From Trypanosoma brucei (taxonomy: Eukaryota): a DNA stretch of 64,000 nucleotides. The position numbers and the translations under genes are program-made. Below the pieces are notes generated by a model. The model was not told where the DNA came from, did not search any database, and saw only the letters and a list, made by a program, of their open reading frames with translations. The DNA lies in assembly GCA_000002445.1 (NCBI GenBank), contig CH464491.1, positions 3,264,001 through 3,328,000 of the forward strand, read 5' to 3'. Shown piece after piece: positions 18,363 to 44,835 of this stretch. The stretch's first letter is position 1. Every line of letters starts with the position of its first letter.

Positions 18363-20024
18363 ATGAGCTCCAGGATGTCACAGAAACTTCGTGGCCACTC
18401 ACTTGCGCCCAAACGGCAGAAGCCCTTGGTGAATCCCGAATTACTTCTGGCCTCACCGACGGACTCGACACGAGGTGGGAGTAAACAGTTTGTTCGTGCT
18501 TTTAATGATGACGGATGTCTTTCCACTCGTGAAGTGGGCGTGCGGTGGTTTAACTTTGCGTTGCTATCCATCTTCTACACACTTCGTTCGCAACCGTGGT
18601 CATTACTAATCACGTACACAATTCTATTGTACGTTGGAATACTATTCGTGTTCTCTGCAGCGTATGTTGTGTGGGCCCGTGGGTGTGGTGCCCAAGACGG
18701 CTCAACGTGGGTGTCCGCTCTGTATTTCACCGTTGTTAGCTTTGCGGCTAACGGTGGTTATGTTGGTGAGCAGCAAGACACCATGCTCGATCCGCATCAC
18801 GTGTGCTTTACCGGACGTACGCTCATTGTAACACTGCTTTCTTTTGGGAACATCATATTCGTCGGACTTGTTGCCGCACTCGTCGTTGGAAAGGCGGCGT
18901 ATGGCGAGGAGTTAGGTCACCGCATAGTCTTCAGTGACTTTTGCTCGCTGGCAATGGCCCCGGGTACAAAAGATCGAGACTGCTGGGACCTCACTTTTCG
19001 CATGGCTAACAGCAGTTCAAGCAAGGCACTCGCACATGGTCAGCTGCGGCTCTTCATTGTAACATCAGAGCCAACAGACAACTCAAGGCATCAACGCAAG
19101 AGGCGTAAGAGTTCAGTGGATAGAACGGAGACACGACGGCACGCCACTAGTAGTCATCATCACATTGATGACAAGAGTAAGCGATCGGGCCAGTTATCGA
19201 AACATTTGGAACACCATATAAGCGACGGTACCGTTCAGACAGAAACCCATCCGCATAGACGCGAGGGAGAACTTGATGATGTAACGAGGATGGATCGCGA
19301 ATCGAGGGAGTGGGCGGACGCCGAGTCGCATATTGTAGAGGTGTTGGCAGAGGAACACCTGAAACGGAAACGAGGTCGTGAACACACCTCTAAACGCCAA
19401 GTACTGTCGTCGCCTGCCACGAGTTCATGTAGCAGTGATGCGGATGGCGGGGCCAGTTTTGGCGGGGCTACGGGGTCGGGGTGTTCATACGTTCCCATCA
19501 ACTCACCTGAGAGTGCCCTGAAGCAAGTGTCCATTCAAGTTGAGGAATTAAGATGGACATGTTCTGGGGAGAAGCACCTCGATGGGCGGGACGGTAGACT
19601 ACTGTTATGGTTCCCAGTGGACATCACGCACACGATTAACCGTTACAGCCCGCTCTACCGCTATGTAAAGCATAATATGACTAATAGTCTTTGCACGCTG
19701 AATTCTCTGCAGGTGGCATCTCCCGCGATCCCGCAGGAAGCGATATCCGAGGAAGAGGGGGGACCAGCCGCTACCGCAGCGTTTCCCTGCTCATTTCAGC
19801 TTGTGGTAATTTTTGACGCAACTGAAATGGAAAGCGGTAGACACATTTCTGCTCGGCACACATATGCCGCGGACGACATAATAAAGCACTACAGGTTTTC
19901 CAATAAGGTGGTGCGCATGTCCCCGGAAAAGAGGGAGGTACTTGTTGACTATCACTATTTTAATGAAATGCTCTCAGATGTCGTGTCGCCTTTGCACCGT
20001 ACGGAGCGTGTTCGCACACGTTAG
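18363..20024 (+). CDS. Inward-rectifier (Kir)-like K+ channel homolog with a non-canonical selectivity filter
   Basis: Kir-like order of elements: QFVRAFNDDGC (Kir RFVxKxGxCNV-like), an outer helix, a pore region WVSALYFTVVSFAANGGYVG in place of TxGYG, an inner helix, then a cytoplasmic domain beginning VFSDFCSLAMAPGTKD (Kir VFSxxAVIA-like). The first ATG after the polyY is 18363; the ORF-track start at 18240 is a GTG. Confidence 0.65.
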   Translation: MSSRMSQKLRGHSLAPKRQKPLVNPELLLASPTDSTRGGSKQFVRAFNDDGCLSTREVGVRWFNFALLSIFYTLRSQPWSLLITYTILLYVGILFVFSAAYVVWARGCGAQDGSTWVSALYFTVVSFAANGGYVGEQQDTMLDPHHVCFTGRTLIVTLLSFGNIIFVGLVAALVVGKAAYGEELGHRIVFSDFCSLAMAPGTKDRDCWDLTFRMANSSSSKALAHGQLRLFIVTSEPTDNSRHQRKRRKSSVDRTETRRHATSSHHHIDDKSKRSGQLSKHLEHHISDGTVQTETHPHRREGELDDVTRMDRESREWADAESHIVEVLAEEHLKRKRGREHTSKRQVLSSPATSSCSSDADGGASFGGATGSGCSYVPINSPESALKQVSIQVEELRWTCSGEKHLDGRDGRLLLWFPVDITHTINRYSPLYRYVKHNMTNSLCTLNSLQVASPAIPQEAISEEEGGPAATAAFPCSFQLVVIFDATEMESGRHISARHTYAADDIIKHYRFSNKVVRMSPEKREVLVDYHYFNEMLSDVVSPLHRTERVRTR

Positions 20025-27749: not shown

Positions 27750-30170
27750 ATGAGCACATCTTTAGTAACGCTTGCCAGTGTTTTGGCTTCGGATTGCACG
27801 CATTACGCGGGGGACCCCAATTTGCTCAAAGCTGACCGATATGCAGACCGCGTGATGAAGTTACTGCAGTCTGAGCAAGCGGATCTCCTTGCGGTGCGCG
27901 TTGCCATTCATGCACAGTTGAGGGATGCTTTCAGGGACGACAGTGTTCAGAAGATGTTGAGGCCATACCTCCGCAGCGACGAAAACATTGCCGACCTTAT
28001 TGAGGATCCCAAAGCACGGGCCAAATTCTTCATGAATAAGCAGCAGGAACTACAGGCCGTTGTGATGGACAGTGCTGAGCAAGTGGCACTGAGAGACGCG
28101 CACCGCGAACTGGCAATATGGGAACGTGAAAATGCAGTGCTGCTTCGCCACCAAATGTTTATGCCTTACAAACCCTCACTCGCGCTCCTATTGGAGAGCG
28201 CTGCCACAATTGCTCTCTACCGTCAGTATGCCACTCTTGAAGAAGGACACTGCTCTAGCGACAGCAGTAGCGGGGAGGTACCGGAACAGCTCGTGAAGAT
28301 GGGAGGCGTGCCACTCTTCACATTGAAATCTGAACAGAAACCGTTCGAGGTGGACGAACACACAAAGATGTATTCCCAGCAGGTGCTACAAAACAAACGT
28401 GTAGAGTACGAAGAGAAGCGGGGGTTGGTAGCGCGTCACCGTAAGGCACTGGAGGAATGCCCATCGCTTTTCCGTTTGCAGGAGTTTATCAACGTTCGCA
28501 ATGAAATTATGCGAAAATTTGGTATCGACCGGCTTGTGTCCCTTCGCGCACGCAGGGATAAGGCACTGGCCGAACCATTTGAGGGTGGTGAGGATGTCAG
28601 CACGCGCGGCCTCCCTGCTGACAACGAAATCGTCAAGAGTCGCCGCGTTGCGCAGTATTCTTTGCCAAAAATTGTTCAGCAATGTCACAAGAACTACGTC
28701 ACAATTGTAGGGGGCGGGCCGTCAGACACAGAAGAGGGGGGAGTTCAAGTCTCCGGTGCCATAGCAACCAAGAGTGCCGCAGGCCCGCTGAAGGACTTGG
28801 AGGTGTTCCGTTACTGGTTCCTTGCCTGCATTACGGCAGATGCGCCACAAATCGGGCCCAACAAGCTCGTGGGGAAGACCTTTCCAACACTTGAAGAATA
28901 TAAGAAGATGTGGCAAGTCCAGAAGACCAGCTATGTGCCGTCTCTCAACACAACTCATAGGCAAAGCTTCGTGAAGAATGTTGCAGAACAACGTGGGCTT
29001 CCGCACATTGTCGTCCTCTCCCCGGTCACTTATTCGTACATGCAGAATAACAGTCGAGACACCGTTGTGAAGGGAGAACTTGACATGATTGTTTACGACG
29101 CTACGAATGAGAAGGTTCTTCTTATGGTTGCTGACTCTCACGATGACCGACGCCCGAGAACAGCGTTCTTAAATGCACAAGAGGAGCGCTACCGTTTTGC
29201 AGCAGTCATCCGCGCAGCGATCGTAAATGACAACGAACTTCATGACTTTCAATGTGAGGGTGTACTTGCTGAGTACTTTTTCGATCCGGATTCGGGGTCT
29301 GAAGAGAACTATTACACAATCATGGCTCCAACCAAGATCTCGCAGAAGGTAGGAACGAAAATAAACGTCCCCTTAAAGGCTCTGCAACCCTTTACCACGT
29401 GCCCGCCGCGGTACTTTATCCTCGGCTCCAACTGGGGCGTCAGCTCGGGAAATAGCAAAAATCCCCACGCCATGTCTTTTTCCCACGCTAAGTTAAACGA
29501 AGAAGCCATCTCCCTGCAGTCGCACATCCCGGAGGGCTTCATTAAGAAGAATGTGATGCCGAAGTTACTCTCGCGCAAAGAAGGACTGGAGTTGCTCGAG
29601 AACGCCAAAAGGCAACGTATAAAGGAACAGCAGCTGCAGAAATATCAGCAGCAGCAGCAACAGCAACTCAACTCCGCGCGTCCAGCGGGAGGGGCCCAAT
29701 CCACTTCGCGGCTCACTCGTTCCGTAACGAATACACCGCGCCCTACCAGTGACCTCGAAGCCGCTGCCGCAGCGGAGCTTCAGGAAGAGGAGAACGGCAT
29801 CTTGCCTGAGGAGGAGGATCCGCTGGGTCCCGTCGTCCCCGAGGATGTACTGCACCCTGTTCGCGATCTTTTACTGAGCAAACGCTTCCTTCAACCAGAT
29901 TTTTTGCAGCGCCGCTCAAAGGACCCGGAGGTGCACCAGTTGCCCGCAACGAAGGATGGGAAAATACGGACACCACTGACTGTATTTAACGAATTGATAA
30001 AATCCCGTTTCGGAGAAGAACCACCAAAGGCCTCACCTCAAACGTTGGCGGGACGCCGCGGTAGCACAAGCAACAGTGGGATTGCGGCACAGGGGCGAGC
30101 ATCGCCGTACACCCGTGCAGCTTCACTACAAAGCGATAGACTGACTTCGAGGGCGCAACGCCGGCAATAA
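27750..30170 (+). CDS. Hypothetical protein (806 aa) with a short polyQ stretch
   Basis: Long ATG-initiated ORF. QKYQQQQQQQLN tract. No catalytic motif recognised. Confidence 0.7.
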   Translation: MSTSLVTLASVLASDCTHYAGDPNLLKADRYADRVMKLLQSEQADLLAVRVAIHAQLRDAFRDDSVQKMLRPYLRSDENIADLIEDPKARAKFFMNKQQELQAVVMDSAEQVALRDAHRELAIWERENAVLLRHQMFMPYKPSLALLLESAATIALYRQYATLEEGHCSSDSSSGEVPEQLVKMGGVPLFTLKSEQKPFEVDEHTKMYSQQVLQNKRVEYEEKRGLVARHRKALEECPSLFRLQEFINVRNEIMRKFGIDRLVSLRARRDKALAEPFEGGEDVSTRGLPADNEIVKSRRVAQYSLPKIVQQCHKNYVTIVGGGPSDTEEGGVQVSGAIATKSAAGPLKDLEVFRYWFLACITADAPQIGPNKLVGKTFPTLEEYKKMWQVQKTSYVPSLNTTHRQSFVKNVAEQRGLPHIVVLSPVTYSYMQNNSRDTVVKGELDMIVYDATNEKVLLMVADSHDDRRPRTAFLNAQEERYRFAAVIRAAIVNDNELHDFQCEGVLAEYFFDPDSGSEENYYTIMAPTKISQKVGTKINVPLKALQPFTTCPPRYFILGSNWGVSSGNSKNPHAMSFSHAKLNEEAISLQSHIPEGFIKKNVMPKLLSRKEGLELLENAKRQRIKEQQLQKYQQQQQQQLNSARPAGGAQSTSRLTRSVTNTPRPTSDLEAAAAAELQEEENGILPEEEDPLGPVVPEDVLHPVRDLLLSKRFLQPDFLQRRSKDPEVHQLPATKDGKIRTPLTVFNELIKSRFGEEPPKASPQTLAGRRGSTSNSGIAAQGRASPYTRAASLQSDRLTSRAQRRQ

Positions 30171-30969
30171 AGGGGAGGGGAAGTTGAGGTCAGCGACTCA
30201 GCTCATGGTTGAGTGAATGCCACTTTTTTGTATTATTTTTCAGTACCACAATCCAATGTGCAACTTAACCATTTGTTCGTGGAGGGGAAAAGGGGGAAAA
30301 AATCACCGCTGCGGCACAAACGGGGGAAGGGGGTAGGATCTGATACGTAATGATGGTGTTCAGCGCGTTTGTTTCTGGACGCAACGTGGTAGACGAAACA
30401 ACCATCAACCGATTAGGTATTTGAATTAGAGGAAACTTCTTGTTACGAAAGGGAGGAAATGTGGGGGCGGGCGGTGGGGAGATGCACACCATTGGAATTA
30501 ACAAAGGAATACAGAGGGAAGAAAAGTAGGAAATTGCCTGGGGACAAGACGGGGAAGTAGTCGTGGGGTACTCGTGTAAGGGGAAAAAAAATCCAGATTT
30601 ATTCTGTTTTCCCCCGTGCAGGTGGTTAGTTTGGCGGTACCTATGTGCCTACATGAAAGAGGAGAACGAATGACAGGACCGACCTCGTATAAATACGCTC
30701 GGCTTTTCTTTTTGTTTTGTTTTGCAGTGCTTCATGATAAGCATCTTATCCCTGACTTCTCTCACCTTTTCGGCACTAATTGTCAATGGAGGTACCGAGG
30801 TTGTTTTGACTCTTCTTGCCAACGCAACCAATTTCTCTACGTATGAGTTCGCACCCTTCATTTTGTGCTGGTGAACCACCGCCTATGCTGATGCTACATT
30901 TTCCTTGTCTAAGTTTTTCTGTTGCTGTTGACGTTGTTATTTTCGTTTTCGTTGTTGTTCCCATATAAT

Positions 30970-30981
30970 GGGGGGGGGGGG
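30970..30981. repeat. G12 homopolymer in an intergenic region
   Basis: Direct read: ataatggggggggggggcgtactgg. Confidence 0.9.
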
Positions 30982-31469
30982 CGTACTGGCAGGCGCATTG
31001 TCGTGCTTCGTTGTAGAAGACGTTTGTTATGTATCTAAAGAATGTGGATTGAAAGAGAGGACAAAAGGCAAGGAAGGATGGGGGAGACTTTAAAGTGCTC
31101 ATATGTACGGTTTGTGTGACAGCTAACGCCCCCGTAGTATTCTTAGTGGTCATTGTCCGACACCATGAAAAGCACTTCCAAGAGAAAAAGGGTGTTTTCC
31201 CCAAGTTGTTCTCGTAGAGTAATGGTGAGAACGCTTCTCCAACATCTGTGGTTAGCGCCTACGTCCTCCGGTACATCATTACTCTGCACTGTTTCTACTT
31301 TTTTTCTCAGACCACAAATAGAATAAAACTGTACCTTATCAGAGGCAGGCTCACGTAGTAATTCAGAAGCAAAAAAAACGCTGTTTTTCTTTTGCTAGTT
31401 TGGCTCCCTGTTCTTCAGTTCAAAGCCGCTACCTCACCATCATCACCCCGCCTCACTGACGGGGAAGCA

Positions 31470-32648
31470 ATGTCGGCGGTTGCAACCGATCCCTCTGTGC
31501 CGACGGGAAAGTCTGAAAGTGAGGCGTTAGTGGCCCAGCGAGAATGTACGTGGAAAGTTGTCAAAGCCGGAGAGGGTTTAGAACGACAACAAACATGGGA
31601 AAAGTCTTCCACACATGAAAGTACCGGCTGTCCAACACTCCCAACTGTGCGCTCAGCATCACAAGGGGGGAAAGAGGTTGAGGATACGATGAGCTCCTCA
31701 AGACGCCTAAGGTGGGGTCACCTGAGCAATGCTTCGGTGCCGGCGTTAGAGAGTGCTGCGCCGAAGGCGGGGCTAGAGGAACAAGCGCATGCCTCGGAAG
31801 TTAAGAAACCGGCTGTTCCCTGCCGTATTTCTCCAAGTGGCATTCCGGTGGAGCGTTACCGTCAAAAATTAGAGGAATGTGCTTCTCTACATCACCAGCT
31901 CCAGGAAATGGTGTCGGCACACTGCGTAACGCAGGAGCAACTTTGCGGTGTTCGAGCAGAGTGCGACTGCCTCAAGAACGAAATTGTGCGGCTTCGGGAC
32001 CTGCTAGCGACAACCACGAGCGAGTTAGGCATTCAGCAGCAGCATGTTGTTGAGCTCGAGCGAGAAAACTTGAAATTACGTGAGGAGTTGCGTGAAAAGC
32101 AAGTGGAGGGTATGACAAGCCAGAGAAAGATGAACTACATACTGTCAAATTCCACTGTGTCGCCCCAGGGTGGTGGGGTCGCGACATATACCCGCTATTC
32201 ACCGCGCCCGTCACCGGCGACATTGGTTTTGCCGGTCACTCCAACACTAATGGTGCAACCGGGTTTGACAGGGGCAAAAAATGTCTTAGATGCGGTAGAG
32301 CTATACGTGAGGGAGTGTTTTCGCACGAATGTTCTGCCACACGTAGAACTTATCCACAGTTTGTACGACGGTGGTCGTCTCGCAGCCGTTGATCCCCCTC
32401 TGACACATGCCCAGTTGAAAGCGCTTCAAAGGGTTCTTGCCGACGTTAAGTGGGAAGTGGAAGTTAGCGGAATACCCGTGGAAACCTACGTCAGTAGGAA
32501 ACCTAGGTTGCAGGGGAGAAGCCAGCGCCTGAAGGATCCAGACGGGTCGTATCCTCTGTGGTTTAATAAGTTGGAGACTCTGACATTTCGTAGCGAAAGT
32601 TGGCGTACATGTCTGGGGTTTGATTGTAGAAGATCGTACGTTCCCTGA
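31470..32648 (+). CDS. Coiled-coil hypothetical protein. It is in frame with the next ORF and separated from it by a single TGA.
   Basis: The first ATG at 31470 follows a polyY tract (31381-31460). Central heptad-rich region (VELERENLKLREELREKQVEG). The ORF-track start at 31392 is TTG. Confidence 0.55.
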   Translation: MSAVATDPSVPTGKSESEALVAQRECTWKVVKAGEGLERQQTWEKSSTHESTGCPTLPTVRSASQGGKEVEDTMSSSRRLRWGHLSNASVPALESAAPKAGLEEQAHASEVKKPAVPCRISPSGIPVERYRQKLEECASLHHQLQEMVSAHCVTQEQLCGVRAECDCLKNEIVRLRDLLATTTSELGIQQQHVVELERENLKLREELREKQVEGMTSQRKMNYILSNSTVSPQGGGVATYTRYSPRPSPATLVLPVTPTLMVQPGLTGAKNVLDAVELYVRECFRTNVLPHVELIHSLYDGGRLAAVDPPLTHAQLKALQRVLADVKWEVEVSGIPVETYVSRKPRLQGRSQRLKDPDGSYPLWFNKLETLTFRSESWRTCLGFDCRRSYVP

Positions 32649-32696
32649 AATCTGCCCGGGTACTTGGAGTTATTCGGCATTAGCGATGCTTCCACC

Positions 32697-34631
32697 ATGC
32701 AGCAACTTGCTGAAACACTCATCATGGAGCAGCATGTGGAGGCGTTGTCGCTGCCAGAAGTGGAGTTGGATGATGAGGGCCTTATTACGCTCTTTACACT
32801 CATAACACGACGTGATCACTTGGGTTCACCAAATACCAATTGGGAAACGTGCGACAACGAAAACCAGGCGTTACAGGAATCAGGCCCCGCAGCAGCTTCT
32901 GAAGCCGCTCCTAATGATGCACAGACGGAAAATAAAGAATCGGCGTCGCCGGAAGCAGGCGCTGCATTAACGCCAGTCGGTAAATCATCCCCAACTAAGA
33001 CCTTGTGGTTTGGAGTGCGCTGTCTAGACCTCAGCCGATGCAAGGTAACCGACCCCACGAATGTATTCAGTTTGTTTCGTTGCCCGGTACTTGAAGTTCT
33101 CGTGCTACCTCCTAGTAACCAGTTGGGTGATGTTCACCTGCGTGGTATTCTAGAAGGGTGTCCCCACCTGCACACGATCGATATTTCGGGTAACACAGCG
33201 TTGACTACTGCATGCGTAAAGTACATTGGCCGACACAGCACCATTAAAGTGCTCCGCCTTGAGAACTGCCCCGGAATCGACCAATTGGATTTGCCCAACG
33301 TTGAGGTGCTTTTCTCCTCCCTTTCCTACGTCATAAAACTCCATGCCCCTGAGCTTCGTCGGTTGCCTGTGCCGGTTGTCCATTCTCGCGTTTTGTTTAA
33401 CTTTAAGGCTCCAAGATTGCGGGAGATCACACTGAAGGGAATTGTTGTGGACCGTGGTACACTTGACTCCTTAAAGGAAACCGCGGGGGAGGATAGTGCT
33501 TGTGAGCCGAAGCTTGCCCGAAGTGTTCTCTCCTCGTGTGATAAGTCCGCGTACTCGGACGGACAGAAACAGAGCACTGCGGCAACAATGCAGCTCCTTT
33601 GTGCCGGTTTCATAGATTGCACGTTTACTGCTGAAAGTGAAGTGAGAGAGTTCACCAAGAAACAAAAAGCACTGTTGCGGTTCAGTCTTCACGGTTGCAA
33701 GGGCGTCGTAGATGCAAACCTTACGCGCCTTCCTGCTACGTTAATGGACCTTGATGTAAGTGACGCTGCACGATTGACTAACAGAGGCTTAGAAATAATT
33801 GCCACCACGCTACCACAGCTCATACGACTGAACCTCAAGAACGCTGGCCCACAGATCAGTAACGAGGGAATACGACTTCTGCGCGGACTTGTCAATCTGG
33901 AAGTGCTGAATCTGCTTCGCCTACCGCAAATTCTGCCGGAGGTGGTATCTGCCGTTGCGAACGACCTTCCTTGGTTGCGCAAGTTATACCACGAGACGGC
34001 CGTGGTGGGACCACGTAGTGTGGTGGCAGCAACTTCCGCACCCGTGCATCTCGACGTGTTGAGAGAAGATGATGAAGATACGACACGAAACGCTGTCGGA
34101 GAGTGTGCGAAGGAGTTGCTACAACTGCGCAATGAAACCGCACTCGCGTTTTGGATGGATGCACAACTTCCGAAACCCACGTCACTTATCCCACCGCGTA
34201 CTGCAGCAGCGGACAGCATCGATTTGAATGCGCCAAACCCGCCGCTAACAGCAAACACAACATTTTACGAAGCGGCCTGTCGTAAACTTTCGAGGAGCGG
34301 CAACGGAAGTGCATTTGGCTCTCAAAGGCGGGCAATCACTCCTCGCAACGCAGACGCTGCTGCTAACCAGAACGAGGAAAGCGAGAAGGTCAACGTATTG
34401 GTGGTTAGTAGTGGAGACGACTCGCCTCTAATGGCATCAATGTCAGGCGGTGTAGAGGGTGTGAATGCAGACTGCGGTGATGTAGATGATAAATCCTTCT
34501 CTACCGCACCAGATCAACTCAGGGCAATGGAGAATGCACTGGACGAAAAGAACAGACTAGTAATAGAAAAAAAGCCCTTGGGTCCATGGGATGAGGAAGA
34601 CCTTGTGGAGAAACACCGGAGGATCGCCTGA
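32697..34631 (+). CDS. Leucine-rich-repeat protein (F-box/LRR-like architecture)
   Basis: Repeated LxxLxLxxCxxI/L units (LRLENCPGIDQLDL, LNLKNAGPQISNEGIRLL, LEVLNLLRLPQI). The first ATG is 32697, but there is no good polyY upstream and it is in frame with the upstream ORF. Confidence 0.6.
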   Translation: MQQLAETLIMEQHVEALSLPEVELDDEGLITLFTLITRRDHLGSPNTNWETCDNENQALQESGPAAASEAAPNDAQTENKESASPEAGAALTPVGKSSPTKTLWFGVRCLDLSRCKVTDPTNVFSLFRCPVLEVLVLPPSNQLGDVHLRGILEGCPHLHTIDISGNTALTTACVKYIGRHSTIKVLRLENCPGIDQLDLPNVEVLFSSLSYVIKLHAPELRRLPVPVVHSRVLFNFKAPRLREITLKGIVVDRGTLDSLKETAGEDSACEPKLARSVLSSCDKSAYSDGQKQSTAATMQLLCAGFIDCTFTAESEVREFTKKQKALLRFSLHGCKGVVDANLTRLPATLMDLDVSDAARLTNRGLEIIATTLPQLIRLNLKNAGPQISNEGIRLLRGLVNLEVLNLLRLPQILPEVVSAVANDLPWLRKLYHETAVVGPRSVVAATSAPVHLDVLREDDEDTTRNAVGECAKELLQLRNETALAFWMDAQLPKPTSLIPPRTAAADSIDLNAPNPPLTANTTFYEAACRKLSRSGNGSAFGSQRRAITPRNADAAANQNEESEKVNVLVVSSGDDSPLMASMSGGVEGVNADCGDVDDKSFSTAPDQLRAMENALDEKNRLVIEKKPLGPWDEEDLVEKHRRIA

Positions 34632-36151
34632 GAAGGTTTGTGGTAGAGCAGGCGTGAGCGCGGCATCGGCACTTTGGTTAGTGCTGTGGTAAGCAAGGGA
34701 AAAGGAGACATGAAAAAGTAGGTGAACAAAGGAATGAATTGTTGGAGGAAATTTTCCTGGTAACCAAGGAGGGGGGAAAAGAAGAGGAGGTGTCGAAGGT
34801 AAAAACACGTTGCATATAACCCCAAGGTAACGAACTTACCCGAGGGCAGTTTACACGTGAGCCAAGGGAGCCCGTGGGTTCTGCGGAAAGGGATATTTGG
34901 GCTCCAAGTAATGCCGCACTTGCATGAAATGTAAGTATAATGTAACAGTGTGGATATCGTCAACAGCTAGCGACGACGTCTCAGAGTTTGCCTCATACGC
35001 TCCAAGTCACGGGGGTGGGCTCTCAAGTGCAGCGGCGAATGCCAAAACATGCCGCTGCGGTTAGCCAGGGATGGTGTTTCCCGTTCATGTGTTATCCCTT
35101 CATATCTTCATATTTCTCTACGGTTGACTCCCGAGTGCATATGTACGCTTCTGGGGGGAAAGTGAACAGGCAGGGAGGAAACCCGTGACATATATATATA
35201 TGTACCTGTATGTATGTGTTTATGTGTATTTTTTTTTTGCGAGGATTTGACGGTAAGTTTGTAAATATGTAGATAATTACGTTATGATGAAAGTAAATAG
35301 ACAACGAGCAAATATCTAATACGGGGGAAAGGGAGAAAATGGGAAGAAGGAATAGTGGAAGAGAGAGAGAGAGCAGCTCGGGCGACACTTTCTCGGTGTG
35401 AGCTATCATGTTTAGTGGAAGGGAAACAAATGAACGAATTGTTCCAGCGACCTACGTAAGTTTTCATCGGGTGAGCCGATGTGCCGTAAGTCACATTTCG
35501 TATGATGAATCTTTTCTCCGATAGGAAAGGGAAAGACGGGAAAGTGTCGCACACTTTTTTGCGTTGGTGCTGGTCTGGCTGGTTTCTTTTTTTCGTTTAT
35601 GTGTTTCTCTTCTGCGGAGTGCACTCCGTTTCCCATGTGCTATGTTGAGTGTATATTAAGCAGAGGTACTGGCGGCGGTGAGGAGAAAGCCCGCGATAAA
35701 GCCGTTTCGCAACTTCCGTTCTGCATGCAGCGGATGGAATTTTATTTCTTCAGGCATATATTCGCAGTTTAAGGGACAAAAGAATGAAAAGGAAATACAT
35801 CATAAGTACGTAAGCCAGTGGTGGATTCCCCGATGTCAATATTTGATTCTCCCTCCCTGAGACACGCGTTAATTCCACCATTTCTCACCCTACCTTTTTC
35901 CCACCCATACCTCATATTTAATGTAGAGCGTGTCACTACTCAGTAGTAGAAGCCATTGTGAATTGCGCTGAGGGCATTTTTGGGCCTGCGTCAGGTCAAT
36001 ACCAACCGAGAAAATCCACTGTGGGAATTGCCTACAGGTGTCATATAAATACAAGCATCGGTGTTTATAATCACTGAGGCATAAAGAGTAGTATAGCAAA
36101 ATTTTCGCCGAGGGGCCTTTTGCTGTTCAGTGCAGGGAATAATCATATACG

Positions 36152-38506
36152 ATGGACGTGGAGGAATCAGAGCAGGGTGTCAATCCTTTGTGTGATTGGG
36201 TGGCGGAACCTCCTGCAAGGGAGCAGGAAAAGGAGCAAGCTGAAGGTGCTGAAGAGATTGGACCTGAAGAACTTGACGAGTGCCATGGTGGAAATATTGA
36301 CGGAACTGTCGAAGAGGTTGTCCCCGAAAAAGAGGGCGTCGGCCCCGGTAAACATGAAAGCAGTTATATTGAAGAGCAGCCCTCTCACGGAGCAGCTGAG
36401 CATCACGAAGCGGCCGAGCACCGCGTCACAGCCGCGGCCTGCGAGGATGAAGGAATGCCGTCGTTGGCCGTTCCCGAGCCACCCAAAACCCCCACCATGA
36501 CAACCTCAGCTCGCAACCGCCGCTCGAGGACTAACGTTGGTATGCCACCGATTGCCGCAGCCAAACCAAGGGCACAGGAAGGCAAGAACGACGGTGGCAA
36601 AGCTGACAAATGTAGTGGAGGGAGGAGCGCTAGAGGCAGGTTAATTCCCAAGCAGCCGGCTCGAAACACGAGTGCAAGGCAAGGGAAGCCCCCTCTTCTG
36701 TCGCCGAGGTGGGTGAAAGAGAGGGAAACACAATATAGGATTGTGTATGGGAAGCCACAGCACCGTTACCGCGTCAAGAGAAATGTTTGTCAACATCACC
36801 CGGCGGCATGCGGTGGCACACAAAGTGGTTTGGCAGAAGATGACGCGGCACTATCTTTCTCGGGTCACATCCACAATGTGGAAAAGCAACTGCACAAGTA
36901 CCTTTGCTCATTTAATACCCAGTGCGAGGAATGTACCGAGGCAGGGCCGCTGTCAAGCTACAAAACTGTATATGGGACCAAGAAAGCTTCGACCCTCAAG
37001 GCGAAATGTGGAGAAAGTCAACCCCCATTCATCCTTGGGGATTCACCTAGGGTTTCCAACGACCCTTTGTGGAGCGTCAACCGCCAGTTGTCCGAGTACA
37101 CTAACCGTCAGCGCCTCAGCGACAGAGGTAATCCAATGGCTAACACTGAACATGACCGTTCAAGTTCAAGGGGAGTGCCTTCTGATGGCGGGTGCACGTG
37201 GAGGACGAAATCCCCTTCCACGATGTCACAGCCCCAGCAACTAGAGTACGAAACCCGGGACGAGCTTCAACATTGTGCCCGACTCTTCCTCGATCGTTTT
37301 GGCGGCTCCAGCGAACGGCGCGACCTTGGCTATAGCTATCGTTGTATCCTTTTGGGGAAGCAGAAACAACAGTGGCTCTCAGGGTCAACGAAGGGGCTCC
37401 CTGGGGTACGGTGGGCGACGAAGAAAGACTCATCTCCCCCAAGACCACCGTTTAGGCACCGCGCGCACGACAGGCGTGTATTCCAAAATGATAAGGTTCG
37501 GACAAATGCCAGCACCTCGGCAAGATCAAAAGGGGGCCGCACTGGCGAAACCAGTGCGCAAAAGCAGGCGACCAGCCCTCACCATCCAGCGGCAGACACG
37601 ACCACGTACGTCAGAGAAGACTGGGTTGCGGAGCGGGGTGCCGCAATTACACTTGAAGCTTCAAAAAGCGACGTGGAAATTCTGAGAGGTGGACCAGAGG
37701 TGAGAGAAGCAGGAACGGAGCTGTTTCCATGTGAGGGGGCTGTGGAAGAACCAGCTGGTTGCTACAAAGTTGAGGGTGAGGAGTTGATGGGCCGCCCTGA
37801 TGCTGTGGGTGTGGAGTTGGTGAGCGGCTCCGAAACCGATCGTGGAGGGATGGAAAGCCGAACTGAGACTGTGGGGGCGGCTTTGGTGAGCCGCACCGAA
37901 ACTGATTGCGAGGAACTTGGAAGCCATGGTGTAATTGAACTTGTGCAACCTTCGGGTGAGGCCGACATTGATGGAGGGGAACAGGAGGGTCACAGCAAGG
38001 TTGCGAGTGAGGGGTTGGCTAGCCAAGCTGGAGCTGACGGCGAGGAACTTGGAAGCCATGATGTAATTGAACTTGTGCAACCTTCGGGTGAGGCCGACAT
38101 TGATGGAGGGGAACCGGAGGGTCACAGCAAGGTTGCGAGTGAGGGGTTGGCTAGCCAAGCTGGAGCTGACGGCGAGGAACTTGGAAGCCATGATGTAATT
38201 GAACTTGTGCAACCTTCGGGTGAGGCCGACATTGATGGAGGGGAACAGGAGGGTCACAGCAAGGTTGCGAGTGAGGGGTTGGCTAGCCAAGCTGGAGCTG
38301 ACGGCGAGGAACTTGGAAGCCATGATGTAATTGAACTTGTGCAACCTTCGGGTGAGGCCGACATTGATGGAGGGGAACCGGAGGGTCACAGCAAGGTTGC
38401 GAGTGAGGGGTTGGCTAGCCAAGCTGGAGCTGACGGCGAGGAACTTGGAAGCCATGATGTAATTGAACTTGTGCAACCTTCGGGTGAGGCCGACAACGGT
38501 TGCTAG
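36152..38506 (+). CDS. Acidic hypothetical protein ending in about five tandem 44-aa repeats (GADGEELGSHDVIELVQPSGEADIDGGE[Q/P]EGHSKVASEGLASQA)
   Basis: ATG 36152. The 132-bp units recur with the same phase at 37919, 38051, 38183, 38315 and 38447 and are near-identical at the nucleotide level. Confidence 0.7.
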   Translation: MDVEESEQGVNPLCDWVAEPPAREQEKEQAEGAEEIGPEELDECHGGNIDGTVEEVVPEKEGVGPGKHESSYIEEQPSHGAAEHHEAAEHRVTAAACEDEGMPSLAVPEPPKTPTMTTSARNRRSRTNVGMPPIAAAKPRAQEGKNDGGKADKCSGGRSARGRLIPKQPARNTSARQGKPPLLSPRWVKERETQYRIVYGKPQHRYRVKRNVCQHHPAACGGTQSGLAEDDAALSFSGHIHNVEKQLHKYLCSFNTQCEECTEAGPLSSYKTVYGTKKASTLKAKCGESQPPFILGDSPRVSNDPLWSVNRQLSEYTNRQRLSDRGNPMANTEHDRSSSRGVPSDGGCTWRTKSPSTMSQPQQLEYETRDELQHCARLFLDRFGGSSERRDLGYSYRCILLGKQKQQWLSGSTKGLPGVRWATKKDSSPPRPPFRHRAHDRRVFQNDKVRTNASTSARSKGGRTGETSAQKQATSPHHPAADTTTYVREDWVAERGAAITLEASKSDVEILRGGPEVREAGTELFPCEGAVEEPAGCYKVEGEELMGRPDAVGVELVSGSETDRGGMESRTETVGAALVSRTETDCEELGSHGVIELVQPSGEADIDGGEQEGHSKVASEGLASQAGADGEELGSHDVIELVQPSGEADIDGGEPEGHSKVASEGLASQAGADGEELGSHDVIELVQPSGEADIDGGEQEGHSKVASEGLASQAGADGEELGSHDVIELVQPSGEADIDGGEPEGHSKVASEGLASQAGADGEELGSHDVIELVQPSGEADNGC
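37880..38506 (+). repeat. Tandem array of a 132-bp unit (about 4.7 copies, alternating Q/P variant) inside the CDS 36152-38506
   Basis: Identical strings ggaagccatgatgtaattgaacttgtgcaaccttcgggtgaggccgacattgatgg recur at a 132-nt period. Degenerate partial copies lie just upstream (about 37790-37918). Confidence 0.9.
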
Positions 38507-39877: not shown

Positions 39878-40720
39878 ATGCAGCTAAAGGAGCGCCTTCA
39901 GCAGTGGCGAGAACGGGGACTGCAGGGAGCGGATGTGGACCCACCAGTGCAGAGGCCACGCAGTTTCCGTCCTAGCTGTATAGTTCCGCGTTTGTACTTG
40001 GGCGCGGCAAAAGACGTGCAGGATGTGCGGACACTACGCAGCCGGCTTCTGCCTGACAAGTTGCTGATGGTTGTCTCCACTTGCGACCCGTCGGACCCAC
40101 CGAGGATGGAGCTTCGCCAGATTGCGCCCACGAAGGGGACCGCATACACCGTGAAGCGGTTGGCAGTGTGCTCGTGGGAGGAACTTGAGAAACGCGTTGT
40201 AACCTCCTCTTTTTGTTGCAGATTACCCCGAAATGAGGTCATGGTTGCGACGGCCGAATGGTTGAAAGAGGTCCTCAAAACAAAGTCTTTACCCCCTGTT
40301 TCTTTAGAAGAGTGCCGCGACGTGCAGAAAGGAGAAACCGACGGGAAAGTGTCTGAGGTGTTTGAGGAGGGGCTGTACCTTAAGCTCTGCTTGCCCTGGA
40401 AGGATGAAAGTAACTTCACAGTACGGCCGTACTTTGCGGTGGCGACGGCGCTTATACACGCCACCATGGATGGCATACAAGGTGCTGTCGTGTGCTACTG
40501 TATGGCGGGTAAGTCACGCTCCGCCACACTCACCTGTGCATTGTTGCTGTACTGCTGCTATGACAATGTAGGACGGCCGAAGGACGAGGAAGAATGCTCA
40601 GCTTATAAGGCAGTGCAGGCAGTCGTTGAGTTTGTGCGGGAGGTACGGCTTTGTGTTAGTCCCAACGAAGGGTTTATAGAGCAGCTGAGGGACTACGCAA
40701 GTGATTTGTTGGCGGTCTGA
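39878..40720 (+). CDS. Dual-specificity protein phosphatase (Cys-based, CX5R)
   Basis: Active-site loop VVCYCMAGKSRSATL matches CxxGxxRS of DUSP/PTP enzymes. ATG-initiated. Confidence 0.75.
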   Translation: MQLKERLQQWRERGLQGADVDPPVQRPRSFRPSCIVPRLYLGAAKDVQDVRTLRSRLLPDKLLMVVSTCDPSDPPRMELRQIAPTKGTAYTVKRLAVCSWEELEKRVVTSSFCCRLPRNEVMVATAEWLKEVLKTKSLPPVSLEECRDVQKGETDGKVSEVFEEGLYLKLCLPWKDESNFTVRPYFAVATALIHATMDGIQGAVVCYCMAGKSRSATLTCALLLYCCYDNVGRPKDEEECSAYKAVQAVVEFVREVRLCVSPNEGFIEQLRDYASDLLAV

Positions 40721-41078
40721 TTGTCGGTTGTCGATGTTGTGTCGTATTGGTACGCTCTACGTTATTTACAGTGGTTTTGCGCTGGTGTTTTGGCATAGGT
40801 GTTTCTGTTGCTTTCCATCGCGGACATCTGTGCATAGCCAAAAGGAACGTGTTGACGCTCGTTTGTTGATGCCATTTTTATTGTTGTGGGAGCTATGTTC
40901 CCTTCCACGACCGTGTGCGCCTGCGGGACTCGCTTTTCCCTTCACCCTGTTAACAAATTTCCTTTTCCAGCGCGAGGGCTCACGTGTCTCACGTTGGTTA
41001 CGCACAACACTGTAAAGGGAAGGGGTGTTTACCTCCTCCGTGCAGGAACCTGTGCAAAATTCTCAAGCAAACAAAGCG

Positions 41079-42260
41079 ATGGGTGCCAACAACATAAGGG
41101 AAGGGAGTGGTACCCCACGGGCCAAATCAAACGCGACGGAAAGTAAGGGCGGTGAAACAGTTTCAGAAGACCTGATTTCCGTGCTCCTCTGCGGGACGTG
41201 CAGGGCGCCTATCACGGACCATAACAACATTCTTGGGTGCCGTGAGGAATCCGTGTGGGCTCAGCAGGCCTTTGCGTACGAGGTAGATCTCTTTGCTGAT
41301 TGTCCGCCGCTGTGGTGCTACTCCGCTACCAACCCACAAGGCCGACGCTTTGACATCATACGCTGCACTGCGACTGCGGTAAATCGCTACCGCACGGTGA
41401 CACTGAGCGGACCGTGGTCGGGTGAACATTCCTTTTTCGTGGGTCACAAGTGGTGCTACGCTTCCTGCAATACATGTAGCAGCTTTTTGGGTTGGGCCTT
41501 CTGTAGGGCAAGTGAAGCCCTTAGCTTTAGTGGAGGTAGCACCGAGGACAATGATATCCAAATCGATGGGGGCGGTTGCGGCAGCAAAACCACTGATGAT
41601 GATGATGATAACGTGGATGAAGAAAGTATAGTCACCGTCGGGGGTAATAACAGCAACAATGTGAGCCTTCAAAGGGACGGGGCAAGTGATGATGACGGCA
41701 CTGTGGGTTTTGATCCCTCTGTTCTTTCCTTCCTCGGACTCATCGTGACTAACTGTGTGGGACGCAGCGGTTATTCGCTCAGACAGTACAATGAGCTGAT
41801 GAACGCGGACCCCCTTTTGCGACGGCGATTTGTAGGAAATTCACCGCTCGAAGACCTTCACAGTGGAGAGGACGGCAACTACTTCGTGTCGGCAACACAT
41901 TTTCTGGGACCATCCAGAGATGACCACAGCAGATTATTTGTTGGCATAGGCAGACATCGACAACTGCAGTCTTTCTTGGATGTTGTCCGAACATCTTTGC
42001 TGCCTGTTAACGCAGTCATTGGGACTGAAAGCCAGGATGGAGATGGGGAAACTTCCGAAGATGAAGCAAACAACTCGACGGCTCCCCGCACAAGCTCGCA
42101 CCGCAGTGACTCGAGCGGAGATGGTTCTGAAGATGGCGAAAATATGGGTACATCTCCGTCCTTCACTAACATTCCACCCCATTGTTTCGGCTGTGGGGAT
42201 ATGGCCGACTCCATCGATGAAGATGTTTCTTCAACTGAAGGCAGCGATAAGTCGGATTAG
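41079..42260 (+). CDS. Yippee/CULT-type zinc-binding domain protein with a long acidic, Ser/Asp-rich C-terminal extension
   Basis: Two CxxC pairs with Yippee-like spacing: CGTCRAPITDHNNILGC ... CYASCNTCSSFLGWAF (Yippee C..C...LGW signature). The ORF-track start at 41025 is GTG; the first ATG is 41079. Confidence 0.7.
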   Translation: MGANNIREGSGTPRAKSNATESKGGETVSEDLISVLLCGTCRAPITDHNNILGCREESVWAQQAFAYEVDLFADCPPLWCYSATNPQGRRFDIIRCTATAVNRYRTVTLSGPWSGEHSFFVGHKWCYASCNTCSSFLGWAFCRASEALSFSGGSTEDNDIQIDGGGCGSKTTDDDDDNVDEESIVTVGGNNSNNVSLQRDGASDDDGTVGFDPSVLSFLGLIVTNCVGRSGYSLRQYNELMNADPLLRRRFVGNSPLEDLHSGEDGNYFVSATHFLGPSRDDHSRLFVGIGRHRQLQSFLDVVRTSLLPVNAVIGTESQDGDGETSEDEANNSTAPRTSSHRSDSSGDGSEDGENMGTSPSFTNIPPHCFGCGDMADSIDEDVSSTEGSDKSD

Positions 42261-42640
42261 TGGATAAGCAGGGCAAACCAATGCGTCACTGGTGCTTTAC
42301 CCCACCCCTGTTACGAAGAAACGAATGGGCGCGGCTCCATTCATATGGTCGTTCGTCCCTGTCGACTGTGTTACCTTCCTCTTTCGATTGTTTTAATGGC
42401 ATATCCTTTCGTTTTCTTTTGTTTTTTCTCTCCTTGTGCTACCATTCACATGCACGCATGAACAAACATTACCGTTCAGATGAAACCCCGACGGCACCAC
42501 ACGCTGCCGGCGCTTGGATAAGGCGTGACTACACGAGCCACAAAGGAAGCATGTGGATAATGCACAGCCCACAAAATGTCTGTCACTGATGCGGGCGCAT
42601 CGTTGTGACTTCATTTTGCGCACATGAGAAACTGGCAGCT

Positions 42641-42661
42641 CCCCCCCCCCCCTCCTCCCCC
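42641..42661. repeat. C12 homopolymer followed by tcctccccc (C-rich tract) in an intergenic region
   Basis: Direct read: agctcccccccccccctcctcccccaaaa. Confidence 0.9.
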
Positions 42662-43580
42662 AAAACTCGGACGGAAAGGAGGAAAGCAAAAAAAAATAGT
42701 AGTGCGTGCAGCTACTAGGCTAGGGCGCGTTGACCGCACTGTTGCAGACACAACTCCCTCTTCCTCGTCATGTCACCTCTTTTTTCCTTTTTTGAGCTTG
42801 CGACAAAACAAGTTGCAGATCATACGTTTTAGTTTTACTGTCAACACCATCTTTAATGTCCCGTTTTTTGTTCGGTTGTTTGGGAGTGGTGGTGGTGGTG
42901 TTTCCGCTGCCAGGGTCATGCCGTGAGTCGCGTGCGGTCTCCACGACTGTAGAGGGGAGAATTTGCTAGTTGGAGGGTCCCTGCCAAATTCATGGTGAGG
43001 TCCAGCTGCAAAGACGTTTGCTATGGCGCGGAGAAAATCGTCACCCCTCTGTGTTTGTTTTCACTGGGTAGGTTTAAAAAAAAAAAAATGAAGACAGCGC
43101 CGGCATTGGTGTCGTTTTAGGTAGGCATGAGGAATAAGAAAAGAGGAAACGACCCATTTTCGGCTTGGTGTTTCTTGAAAGCTGGAAACCAGAGTCTAAC
43201 TACCACCGCCCTCAACTCCATGTCTTTTCCTGCTGCTCCTCCCTCACAACCCCTGCAATGTGTAGGAATTGTGGAGCTGATCTTTTCACGACTGTTTGAT
43301 CTAAATAACCCTATATATGTACACATTTATACCAATGGCTATGGGGCTTGCCTTTTCACGTTTCTTCTTTAACATCGTTTTTTGAGTGTGGGGGTTGTAG
43401 AGAAGTTTCGCGGGTGTGGGCGGCAGGAAGAGTTTTTTCTTTTCTTTTCTTCGGAAAGAACAAGGTCTAAGTTATAAAGGGATAGAAAAGAGGGGGAACA
43501 ACAGGGAGCTATCAGCACATTTAGTTCTGTACATTGCTATCACATAGAGAGAGGGTTCGCTCCCTCTCCTCCCTTGGAAC

Positions 43581-44342
43581 ATGGCCCAAAGCTTTGATGA
43601 CTGGCTGCAGAGTTTGAATCCCGTAACGAAAGGCGTGTTCGCCGCCGCAGTCCTCCTGACGGCAGCCATTTCCATGCATATTGCACCTTATACATACTTT
43701 ACTTTGGATACCTCTGCGATTATGGGGCTGCAATTGTGGCGACCTTTCACGGCTGCACTTTTCTTTGGTAAGTTCTCCTTCCCATGGTTAATTGCGATGG
43801 CAATGTTTGTTTCCTACCTCAAGTATAACGAGGAATACGACTACCAAGGGAAAACAGCAGATTTTGCGTGGATGCTTATTCTTGTTGTTATTGGACTGAC
43901 AGCAGGTGGGTTGTTGCTTGGGTTGCCCATCGTTAGTGGTGCTCTGCTAATGGCACTGTGCTGGGTTTTTTGTAAGCGTCACCCGCAGCTGCGCATGAAA
44001 TTGTATAGCTTCGAGTTCGATGCGAAGACGTTTCCATGGGTGTTGGCCCTGTTTCACTTTATTCTCGGTCAAAACATTCTTGAGGATGCGCTTGGTATCG
44101 TTGTGGGTCACCTCTTCTTTTTTCTTAACGATCTGATACCTTTGAAGCACGGAACAAACCCAATTGCGACACCCTCGTGGTTTGTGCGTCTCACAGGGCT
44201 TGAAAATGGCGGCGTGCGCTTTGGTGGCGTGCACGCGGGAGGACAGGCGTTTGCTGCTCGATTCGCGCGGCAACCACCACCAGCTGCCGCGGGCGGGCGG
44301 CCGCACCATTGGGGACCAGGTCACCGGCTTGGCACAACTTAA
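43581..44342 (+). CDS. Derlin (Der1-like, ER-associated degradation membrane protein)
   Basis: N-terminal WLQSLNPVTKGVFAAAVLLT and LQLWRPFTAALFFG resemble the Der1 family signatures (WY..IPPVTR / LQLWRLxTxFxFFG). Four predicted TM helices. Confidence 0.8.
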   Translation: MAQSFDDWLQSLNPVTKGVFAAAVLLTAAISMHIAPYTYFTLDTSAIMGLQLWRPFTAALFFGKFSFPWLIAMAMFVSYLKYNEEYDYQGKTADFAWMLILVVIGLTAGGLLLGLPIVSGALLMALCWVFCKRHPQLRMKLYSFEFDAKTFPWVLALFHFILGQNILEDALGIVVGHLFFFLNDLIPLKHGTNPIATPSWFVRLTGLENGGVRFGGVHAGGQAFAARFARQPPPAAAGGRPHHWGPGHRLGTT

Positions 44343-44835
44343 CTGGACCCCCTCGCCTTCCCCCTCCTTTTTTCTTCCTCGCACGGGAACTGTGACTATT
44401 GTACATCCGTGTGGTTAGTGTTGGGAATTTCCTGGGTATCCAAGCAACGCATGAGGAAAGTGGTGTGGGAACAAAAATTTGTGGACAATTGCCCCAGCAA
44501 CAGCCCACTCAACACATCTGTTCCCTCTATGTTATCTTGCGCGGTTGCTTCGGGTCTTAAGTTGGAATCGTATCTCCTTCTTTTTGTTGGCGTTACAGCC
44601 CTTTACTCTGTGTTCCTTAAGAAAGCTCTGATTTTTTCTTTATTCTTCTCCCCAAATTGCAGTCTTGACTTACCTGGTGCAGGAAAAAAGTGGGAAGGTG
44701 CCAAAAGCAGTTGAGGGTACGGTTGAGTCAACGACAGTAATAGGGAAAGCAGTTCACTCCGCAGGCGTCCGTGACTACACGCGCTCGCTTCAAATCAACA
44801 GTTTTATTTAGTATCACAGTTGCCACCACGCACCG

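What the first reader, a model, noticed from the sequence alone, without database searches (positions are those of the whole stretch)
31470..34631. Coiled-coil ORF and LRR ORF are in the same frame, separated by a single TGA and only about 50 nt
ORF 31392-32648 and ORF 32664-34631 share frame 0. The only stop between them is TGA at 32646-32648. The 48-nt gap before the next ATG (32697) has no convincing polypyrimidine tract or room for polyadenylation and SL-addition signals. Genuinely separate kinetoplastid genes are normally hundreds of nt apart. Possible explanations are a single coiled-coil-plus-LRR protein with a sequencing error or strain-specific nonsense mutation (a pseudogene in this isolate), or programmed stop-codon readthrough. 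Alternatively the LRR gene may use a more downstream ATG while the upstream gene has an unusually short 3' UTR.
Basis: seen in the sequence. Interest (0 to 1): 0.5.

Follow-up and report, generated by a model that had tools for sequence, protein, structure and literature searches.

The report
One gene split by three insertions
The two same-frame ORFs are one conserved trypanosome coiled-coil/leucine-rich-repeat gene, cut in two in the T. brucei TREU927 reference by three extra single bases within 44 nt, most likely sequencing errors; this is an annotation flaw, not new biology.

Summary
ORF1 (31470-32648) and ORF2 (ATG 32697-34631) share a frame, with one TGA (32646-32648) and a 48-nt gap between them.

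The window is T. brucei brucei TREU927 chromosome 11. The ORFs are Tb11.01.4380/Tb927.11.12540 and Tb11.01.4390/Tb927.11.12550.

Every relative found encodes a single protein of 1051-1301 aa across this point: T. b. gambiense, two T. equiperdum genomes, T. congolense, T. vivax, T. rangeli, T. cruzi and T. theileri.

The lesion is not a nonsense substitution. TREU927 carries three private 1-nt insertions (32615 GGG>GGGG, 32630 A>AA, 32658 GG>GGG). They shift the frame twice and then restore it. The TGA is the out-of-frame reading of ancestral CTG AAA. Deleting the three bases gives an open 1052-aa ORF that differs from T. equiperdum at 2 residues.

Published RNA-seq and ribosome profiling report no spliced-leader site and no separate mRNA for ORF2, yet it carries abundant ribosome footprints.

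Best reading: one gene and one mRNA, split by clustered base-calling errors (about 0.7). The main rival is a real TREU927 frameshift allele (about 0.25). Readthrough and two separate genes are both rejected. Interest is low.

The parts
31298..31398 (+). Candidate trans-splicing signals upstream of the real start codon: pyrimidine run 31298-31308 followed by AG at 31309-31310, and pyrimidine run 31384-31393 followed by AG at 31397-31398.
   Evidence: Read directly from the sequence. The 1299-nt upstream intergenic region has an 11-nt pure pyrimidine run. Use as a spliced-leader acceptor is inferred, not shown here.
31470..32614 (+). 5' part of the single CDS, residues 1-382 up to ...WRTCL and the first two bases of Gly383. 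It holds a disordered N-terminus, a long helical/coiled-coil segment (about aa 126-227), a conserved block at 272-324, and the first strand-helix repeat from about aa 364. Annotated as Tb11.01.4380 / Tb927.11.12540.
   Evidence: ORF1 matches XP_829316 exactly. It is colinear with residues 1-383 of the single-chain orthologs. Secondary structure comes from a low-confidence AF2 model.
32615..32618 (+). Insertion 1: GGGG in TREU927 where three other Trypanozoon genomes have GGG. It moves the conserved coding sequence one base out of the window's frame 0.
   Evidence: DNA alignment A1 column 76. Listed as a window-private indel at 32615.
32630..32631 (+). Insertion 2: AA in TREU927 (GTAGAAGATC) where the others have A (GTAGAGATC). 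This is a second frame shift.
   Evidence: Alignment A1 column 91. Private indel at 32630.
32646..32648 (+). The TGA that ends annotated ORF1. It is the out-of-frame reading of ancestral ...TCC CTG AAA TCT... (Ser-Leu-Lys-Ser). These bases are identical in all four genomes.
   Evidence: Alignment A1. The three-frame translation shows GLIVE in frame 1 and IVRSLKSAR in frame 2.
32658..32660 (+). Insertion 3: GGG in TREU927 where the others have GG. It restores the original frame from TAC (Tyr397) at 32661.
   Evidence: Alignment A1 column 119. Private indel at 32658.
32697..32699 (+). Annotated start codon of Tb11.01.4390 / Tb927.11.12550. It is really internal Met409 of the full-length protein, inside the conserved motif ISDxxVMxQLAE.
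   Evidence: Protein alignment A2 column 483. ORF2 matches XP_829317 exactly.
32661..34631 (+). 3' part of the single CDS, residues 397-1052. It holds the rest of the N-terminal repeat block, a variable acidic/Ser-rich linker, cysteine-containing LRR blocks (about aa 515-660 and 705-845), a conserved C-terminal region ending ...KPLGPWDEEDLVEKHRRIA, and the stop TGA at 34629-34631.
   Evidence: Pfam LRR_4/LRR_6 hits are below the curated cut-offs. A profile hit to the FBXL2 LRR domain has E = 1.6e-7.

Best explanation
Bases 31470-34631 are one gene for a conserved, trypanosome-wide protein of about 1052 aa (about 116 kDa). It has a disordered N-terminus, a coiled coil, and cysteine-containing leucine-rich repeats.

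In the deposited TREU927 chromosome 11 sequence the gene looks like two ORFs because three extra single bases lie within 44 nt (32615, 32630, 32658). Each lengthens a short run. Together they push the frame out by one, then by two, then back, so a TGA that is normally out of frame (C|TGA|AA) becomes in frame.

The most likely origin is a short stretch of poor base-calling in the 2005 Sanger-era reference. On that reading, TREU927 cells make one trans-spliced mRNA from an acceptor upstream of 31470, and one full-length protein.

Shown here:
- The single-gene ancestry.
- The exact nature of the lesion.
- The lack of intergenic signals in the gap.
- Published reports of no spliced-leader site or separate RNA for the downstream ORF, with ribosome footprints on it.

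Inferred: that the three insertions are errors rather than a real allele.
For: 1. Identity. ORF1 and ORF2 are exact matches to TREU927 XP_829316 (392 aa) and XP_829317 (644 aa). The neighbours are TbIRK Tb927.11.12490 and FAZ3 Tb927.11.12530.

2. Orthologs are single chains. These are 1052 aa in T. b. gambiense DAL972 and in two T. equiperdum genomes, 1051 aa in T. congolense, 1078 aa in T. vivax, 1080 aa in T. rangeli, 1175 aa in T. cruzi and 1301 aa in T. theileri. Unnamed relatives of 1121-1556 aa also span the junction. The three Trypanozoon loci have the same neighbours: an 806-aa gene upstream and a 784-aa gene downstream (the downstream neighbour is seen in two of the three loci).

3. 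Nature of the lesion. There are three window-private 1-nt insertions. The bases around them are otherwise identical in all four genomes. Deleting them gives an open 1052-aa ORF with only 2 residue differences from T. equiperdum OVI.

4. Conservation at the break. The 13 residues lost from frame (LIVEIVRSLKSAR) lie in a block conserved as far as T. cruzi. The TREU927 in-frame reading FDCRRSYVP*NLPG matches nothing.

5. Clustering. These are the only internal CDS indels in about 6.3 kb of aligned coding sequence. Including the private substitution at 32545, 4 of the 7 private changes in this CDS fall within 114 nt. Across the aligned 9.2 kb there are only about 15 private changes.

6. No intergenic signals in the 48-nt gap.

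7. Published RNA data.
- Kolev 2010 (PMC2936537) Table S2 lists Tb11.01.4390, but not 4380, among ORFs without a transcript of their own.
- Jensen 2014 (PMC4210626) Additional file 8 lists Tb927.11.12550 as 'no SL; no distinct RNA'. It nevertheless has 6473 CDS footprints against 1 in the 3' UTR, giving a ribosome release score of 159.

8. Selection. Across Trypanozoon the part downstream of the break shows 9 synonymous and 2 non-synonymous differences, so it is under purifying selection.
Against: - No TREU927 reads independent of the reference could be examined, so error and real allele are not separated directly.
- The two-gene model was still present in the v5 assembly used in 2014.
- The Jensen footprint counts are pooled over six TREU927 libraries and three Lister 427 libraries. 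They do not prove translation of the LRR part in TREU927 itself.
- Kolev's data come from T. b. rhodesiense YTat 1.1, not TREU927.
- Finished Sanger BAC sequence usually has fewer than 1 error per 10 kb, so three errors in 44 nt requires a locally poor region.
Confidence: 0.72

Rival explanations
1. The three insertions are real in TREU927, on one or both alleles. The strain would carry a frameshift-disrupted copy of a conserved gene. That allele would make only a 392-aa coiled-coil fragment with 9 aberrant C-terminal residues. Any LRR-part protein would come from the other, intact allele.
For: - The sequence as deposited has the lesion, and it persisted into assembly v5.
- TREU927 is diploid and the reference is a haplotype mosaic (general knowledge).
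- An intact second allele would still explain the footprints on the downstream ORF.
Against: - Three independent +1 events in runs of only 1-3 bases within 44 nt are very unlikely, given that this lineage shows no other CDS indel in about 6.3 kb and only about 1.6 private changes per kb.
- Restoring the frame after a stop codon brings no selective benefit.
- The gene is conserved across Trypanosoma and is under purifying selection within Trypanozoon.
Confidence: 0.24
2. Programmed stop-codon readthrough of the TGA at 32646-32648 yields a fused protein as a regulated event.
For: Only the shared frame, the single stop, and footprints on the downstream ORF.
Against: - The stop is absent from every ortholog.
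- The 14 codons spanning it are out of frame with a conserved segment, so a readthrough product would carry a scrambled helix.
- Nothing around the stop is conserved as a readthrough signal, because the flanking DNA is ordinary coding sequence identical to that of strains lacking the stop.
Confidence: 0.01
3. These are two genuinely separate genes, with an unusually short 3' UTR and intergenic region, or with a downstream ATG used for the LRR gene.
For: The current two-gene annotation.
Against: - The gap has no pyrimidine tract and is far too short compared with the other 20 gaps.
- Two independent studies found no spliced-leader site and no distinct RNA for the downstream ORF.
- ATG 32697 aligns with an internal conserved residue, and conserved coding sequence runs straight across the gap.
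- The break lies inside a predicted strand-helix repeat.
Confidence: 0.01
4. The lesion is real and homozygous, and the LRR part is made by translation reinitiation at AUG 32697, 48 nt after ORF1 terminates on the same mRNA.
For: Footprints on the downstream ORF without its own spliced-leader site.
Against: - Reinitiation after a 392-codon ORF is very inefficient in eukaryotes (general knowledge).
- The footprint counts include Lister 427 libraries.
- The product would lack the first strand and helix of the conserved repeat block.
Confidence: 0.02

Closest known systems
[quoted passage not shown]
   Same: - After the three bases are removed, the window protein is colinear with these over its full length.
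- It differs from T. equiperdum OVI at 2 residues and from T. b. gambiense at 5.
- In T. b. gambiense and T. equiperdum the neighbours match: FAZ3 upstream and a 784-aa repeat protein downstream.
   Different: The TREU927 record has three extra bases and is therefore annotated as two genes (392 aa and 644 aa).
Annotation splits in reference genomes caused by clustered indel base-calling errors
   Same: - The changes are private to one assembly.
- They sit in short homopolymer or dinucleotide contexts and are tightly clustered.
- The flanking sequence is otherwise identical.
- The gene is intact in every other genome, and expression data behave as for a single gene.
Unitary pseudogenes created by frameshift
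   Same: A disabling frameshift with a premature stop in a gene that is otherwise conserved.
   Different: The rest of the ORF carries no further lesions. The frame is restored after 44 nt. There are three hits in 44 nt and none elsewhere.
Cysteine-containing (FBXL-type) LRR domains, for example human FBXL2 (6o60_C) and FBXL5 (6vcd_B)
   Same: Weak profile similarity of residues about 738-846 and 543-613 to these LRR domains. The repeats show a recurring ...LxLxxCxxhxD... pattern.
   Different: No F-box was detected by Pfam. The protein also has an N-terminal coiled coil and trypanosomatid-specific conserved regions, so it is not shown to be an SCF substrate adaptor.

Membership tests
Single orthologous LRRP gene of Trypanosoma | Full-length colinear homology across the junction within one polypeptide | tested here: met
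   Alignment A2 covers seven single-chain orthologs. The window ORF1 and ORF2 abut on the same conserved block. Profile hits P0011, P0012 and P0014 each span the junction in one matched stretch.
Single orthologous LRRP gene of Trypanosoma | Conserved gene order in close relatives | tested here: met
   The gene follows an 806-aa gene in L001, L002 and L003, and precedes a 784-aa gene in L002 and L003. The window has the same arrangement.
Programmed stop-codon readthrough | The stop codon is conserved in orthologs, with conserved in-frame coding sequence on both sides | tested here: not met
   No ortholog has the stop. The flanking 14 codons are frameshifted relative to the conserved sequence.
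Independent kinetoplastid genes within a polycistron | An intergenic region with a polypyrimidine tract and AG acceptor, and room for a poly(A) site | tested here: not met
   The gap is 48 nt with a longest pyrimidine run of 5 nt. The other 20 gaps are at least 313 nt with runs of at least 11 nt.
Independent kinetoplastid genes within a polycistron | The downstream gene has its own spliced-leader site and a distinct mRNA | tested here: not met
   Taken from the literature, not recomputed here. Kolev 2010 Table S2 lists Tb11.01.4390 as having no transcript of its own. Jensen 2014 Additional file 8 gives 'no SL; no distinct RNA' for Tb927.11.12550.
Reference base-calling error | Independent reads from the same strain lack the variant bases | not testable with these tools
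   No TREU927 read data or second TREU927 assembly was reachable. The 90% identity cluster holds only the five NCBI sequences.
True frameshift pseudogene | The lesion is confirmed in the organism, and constraint is relaxed downstream | tested here: inconclusive
   Only one private substitution (synonymous, codon 517) lies downstream of the break, which is too few to test for relaxed constraint.
F-box/LRR (FBXL) proteins | An F-box motif N-terminal to cysteine-containing LRRs | tested here: not met
   Pfam finds only LRR_4/LRR_6 hits below the cut-offs and no F-box. The PDB profile hits are confined to LRR regions.

The most novel reading that the evidence does not exclude
The three insertions are real and homozygous in TREU927, and the LRR part is still made from the single mRNA by efficient reinitiation at AUG 32697 after a 392-codon ORF. 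Alternatively, TREU927 is a viable, fly-transmissible natural knockout of an LRR protein conserved across all Trypanosoma.
Probability: 0.04. Interest if true: 0.45.

Novelty: not a real feature. Interest (0 to 1): 0.08.

Why it matters
The value is practical rather than conceptual.
- Tb927.11.12540 and Tb927.11.12550 should be treated, and probably re-annotated, as one gene of about 1052 aa.
- RNAi, tagging, proteomic and expression data filed under the two IDs belong together.
- C-terminal tags placed on 12540, or N-terminal tags on 12550, would fall inside a conserved repeat unit of the real protein.
- The downstream ORF has been dropped from at least two genome-wide analyses as lacking its own transcript, although it is coding.

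Nothing here points to recoding or to unusual gene packing in trypanosomes.

Tried and rejected
Literature look-ups that gave nothing:
- A full-text search for the old IDs Tb11.01.4380/4390 found 0 papers.
- A search for the new IDs found only FAZ3 in a review, which served as a positional anchor.
- Siegel 2010 has no supplements held.
- The Nilsson 2010 supplements do not contain the IDs.
- The TrypTag supplements do not contain the IDs.
- Parsons 2015 (PMC4644489), the follow-up annotation paper, is not held.
- Jensen Additional files 3-7 are truncated, so per-library counts for Tb927.11.12540 could not be read.
- The GBE 2022 pseudogene paper and the ILRA preprint say nothing about this locus.

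Searching for independent TREU927 sequence: the 90% identity cluster holds only five NCBI entries. No read-derived copy of this gene, repaired or not, exists in the protein collection.

Structure: the AF2 model of the full-length ortholog has mean pLDDT 43. I used it only for secondary-structure context and ran no fold search.

Rejected interpretations:
- A nonsense substitution (it is a triple insertion).
- Programmed readthrough.
- Two genes with a short UTR.
- Use of a downstream ATG.
- Nuclear mRNA editing (not known for nuclear transcripts in kinetoplastids; general knowledge).
Full report
**Observation**

The window has + strand ORFs at 31392..32648 and 32664..34631 in the same frame. 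Translating 31470-34631 in one frame gives 1054 codons with a single internal stop, the TGA at 32646-32648. The next ATG is at 32697, 48 nt after that stop.

All 21 large genes in the window lie on the + strand, so they form one polycistron. The other 20 gaps between them are 313-1520 nt long. Each contains a pure-pyrimidine run of at least 11 nt and a 20-nt window that is at least 85% pyrimidine. The 48-nt gap has a run of only 5 nt, a best window of 60%, and coding-like GC of 0.52.

**Identity of the locus**

An exact-sequence look-up shows that the two ORFs are T. brucei brucei TREU927 XP_829316 (Tb11.01.4380, 392 aa, hypothetical) and XP_829317 (Tb11.01.4390, 644 aa, 'LRRP, putative').

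- Kolev et al. 2010 place Tb11.01.4390 at chr11 v4 3296697-3298631. The window is therefore chr11 3264001-3328000.
- The TbIRK qPCR primer maps at 19095, so ORF 18363-20024 is Tb927.11.12490.
- FAZ3, Tb927.11.12530 (91 kDa), fits the 806-aa gene at 27750-30170.
- The downstream ORF is Tb927.11.12550, which makes the upstream ORF Tb927.11.12540.

**Orthologs are one protein**

A search with the fused translation found single proteins covering both halves:

| Species | Length (aa) |
|---|---|
| T. equiperdum OVI | 1052 |
| T. b. equiperdum BoTat | 1052 |
| T. b. gambiense DAL972 | 1052 |
| T. congolense | 1051 |
| T. vivax | 1078 |
| T. rangeli | 1080 |
| T. cruzi | 1175 |

A profile search of 1.84 billion representative proteins added T. 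theileri (1301 aa) and unnamed relatives of 1121-1556 aa. Their matched stretches run across the junction. In the three Trypanozoon genomes the gene has the same neighbours as in the window.

**What the lesion is**

A DNA alignment of window 32540-32740 with the three Trypanozoon loci shows three single-base insertions private to the window:

- GGG to GGGG, at 32615-32618.
- GTAGAGATC to GTAGAAGATC, at 32630-32631.
- CCCGGTAC to CCCGGGTAC, at 32658-32660.

Every other base from 32546 to the end of the aligned stretch is identical in all four genomes.

The conserved peptide ...CLG LIVE IVRSLKSAR YLELF... is read in the window in frame 0, then frame 1 (GLIVE), then frame 2 (IVRSLKSAR), then frame 0 again. 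The TGA is the out-of-frame reading of ancestral CTG AAA. Deleting the three bases gives an uninterrupted 1052-aa ORF. It differs from T. equiperdum OVI at 2 residues and from T. b. gambiense at 5.

The in-frame TREU927 reading FDCRRSYVP*NLPG has no counterpart in any ortholog. The displaced 13 residues lie in a block conserved as far as T. cruzi. ATG 32697 aligns with an internal conserved residue, Met409 in most species and Leu in T. cruzi.

A low-confidence AF2 model (mean pLDDT 43) predicts alternating strands and helices at residues 364-451, the best-scoring part of the model. The lesion falls in helix 378-391, between strands 370-375 and 397-401. More distant relatives start matching the profile at position 370. 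The split therefore cuts a folded, conserved unit and does not follow a domain boundary.

**Background rate**

I aligned 9.2 kb around the gene against the three other genomes. The three insertions are the only internal indels in about 6.3 kb of coding sequence; the remaining indel columns are alignment-end effects. The target CDS has just 4 private substitutions, one of them at 32545, 70 nt upstream of the first insertion. So 4 of the 7 private changes in this 3.2-kb CDS fall within 114 nt.

About 15 private changes occur over the whole 9.2 kb, so the expected number in 114 nt is about 0.2. This clustering of overcalled short runs is what a stretch of poor-quality Sanger sequence produces. 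It is very unlikely as three independent natural mutations.

Across the four genomes, the part downstream of the break shows 9 synonymous and 2 non-synonymous differences. The LRR half is therefore under purifying selection within Trypanozoon.

**Expression evidence from the literature**

- Kolev et al. 2010 (PMC2936537; strain YTat 1.1) list Tb11.01.4390, but not 4380, in Table S2. [quoted passage not shown]
- Jensen et al. 2014 (PMC4210626) removed Tb927.11.12550 from their analysis as 'no SL; no distinct RNA'. Their table nevertheless gives it 6473 CDS ribosome footprints, 1 footprint in the 3' UTR, 7737 CDS mRNA reads, and a ribosome release score of 159.
- For comparison, most ORFs in the same table embedded in 3' UTRs and annotated 'unlikely' have tens of footprints and a score of 'bkg'.

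The downstream ORF is therefore translated, and ribosomes release at its stop, although it has no 5' end of its own. This is as expected if it is the 3' two-thirds of one CDS.

One caveat applies. The counts are summed over six strain-927 libraries and three Lister 427 libraries. They do not prove translation in TREU927 itself.

**Interpretation**

The claim that this is one gene, and that the TGA results from three 1-nt insertions private to the TREU927 record, is essentially established.

Whether the insertions are base-calling errors or a real TREU927 allele cannot be settled without reads from that strain. I favour error (about 0.7) for four reasons:

- The tight clustering of the changes.
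- Their run-extension character.
- The absence of any other lesion in the ORF.
- The conservation of the gene across Trypanosoma.

A real allele (about 0.25) remains possible, particularly a heterozygous one.

Programmed readthrough is rejected because the stop is unique to this record and lies in a frameshifted segment. The two-gene model is rejected by the missing processing signals, the missing spliced-leader site and RNA, and the conserved coding sequence that crosses the gap.

**The protein itself**

It is trypanosomatid-restricted at the level of full-length homology. Its features are:

- A disordered N-terminus.
- Cysteine-containing LRRs that hit Pfam LRR_4/LRR_6 only below the curated cut-offs.
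- Weak resemblance to the LRR domains of FBXL2 and FBXL5, with no F-box detected.

Its cellular role was not determined here.

**Verdict**

This is an annotation artefact, or at most a strain-specific frameshift, in a known conserved gene. It has low interest beyond correcting the gene model.

Noticed in passing
window 37908-38495: The downstream gene (36152-38506, 784 aa, presumably Tb927.11.12560, no Pfam hit) ends in a 132-nt (44-aa) tandem repeat of 4.5 copies at 99% identity. This accounts for the strong positive GC skew there.
   Followed up: partly
window 35189 and 35228-35232: An AT dinucleotide microsatellite and a T-run in the 1.5-kb intergenic region downstream of the LRR gene differ in length among TREU927, T. 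equiperdum and T. b. gambiense. These are ordinary intergenic indels, unlike the clustered CDS insertions.
   Followed up: no
window 32545: A window-private T>G substitution (Val/Met359 to Gly) creates a GGG run 70 nt upstream of the first insertion. It may belong to the same low-quality stretch of the reference.
   Followed up: partly
window 18363-20024 and 27750-30170: The window contains two characterised genes that anchor its position on chr11. These are the acidocalcisome K+ channel TbIRK (Tb927.11.12490; published primer found at 19095) and, by size and order, the flagellum attachment zone protein FAZ3 (Tb927.11.12530).
   Followed up: yes
window 30171-31469 and 34632-36151: The true gene is flanked by two of the longest intergenic regions in the window (1299 and 1520 nt), which implies long UTRs. 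The region just after the stop (34640-34800) is purine-rich and G-rich.
   Followed up: no
window 39878-47367: Other genes in the same polycistron include a dual-specificity phosphatase domain protein (39878-40720), a Der1-like protein (43581-44342) and a UvrD/REP-type helicase (44836-47367).
   Followed up: no
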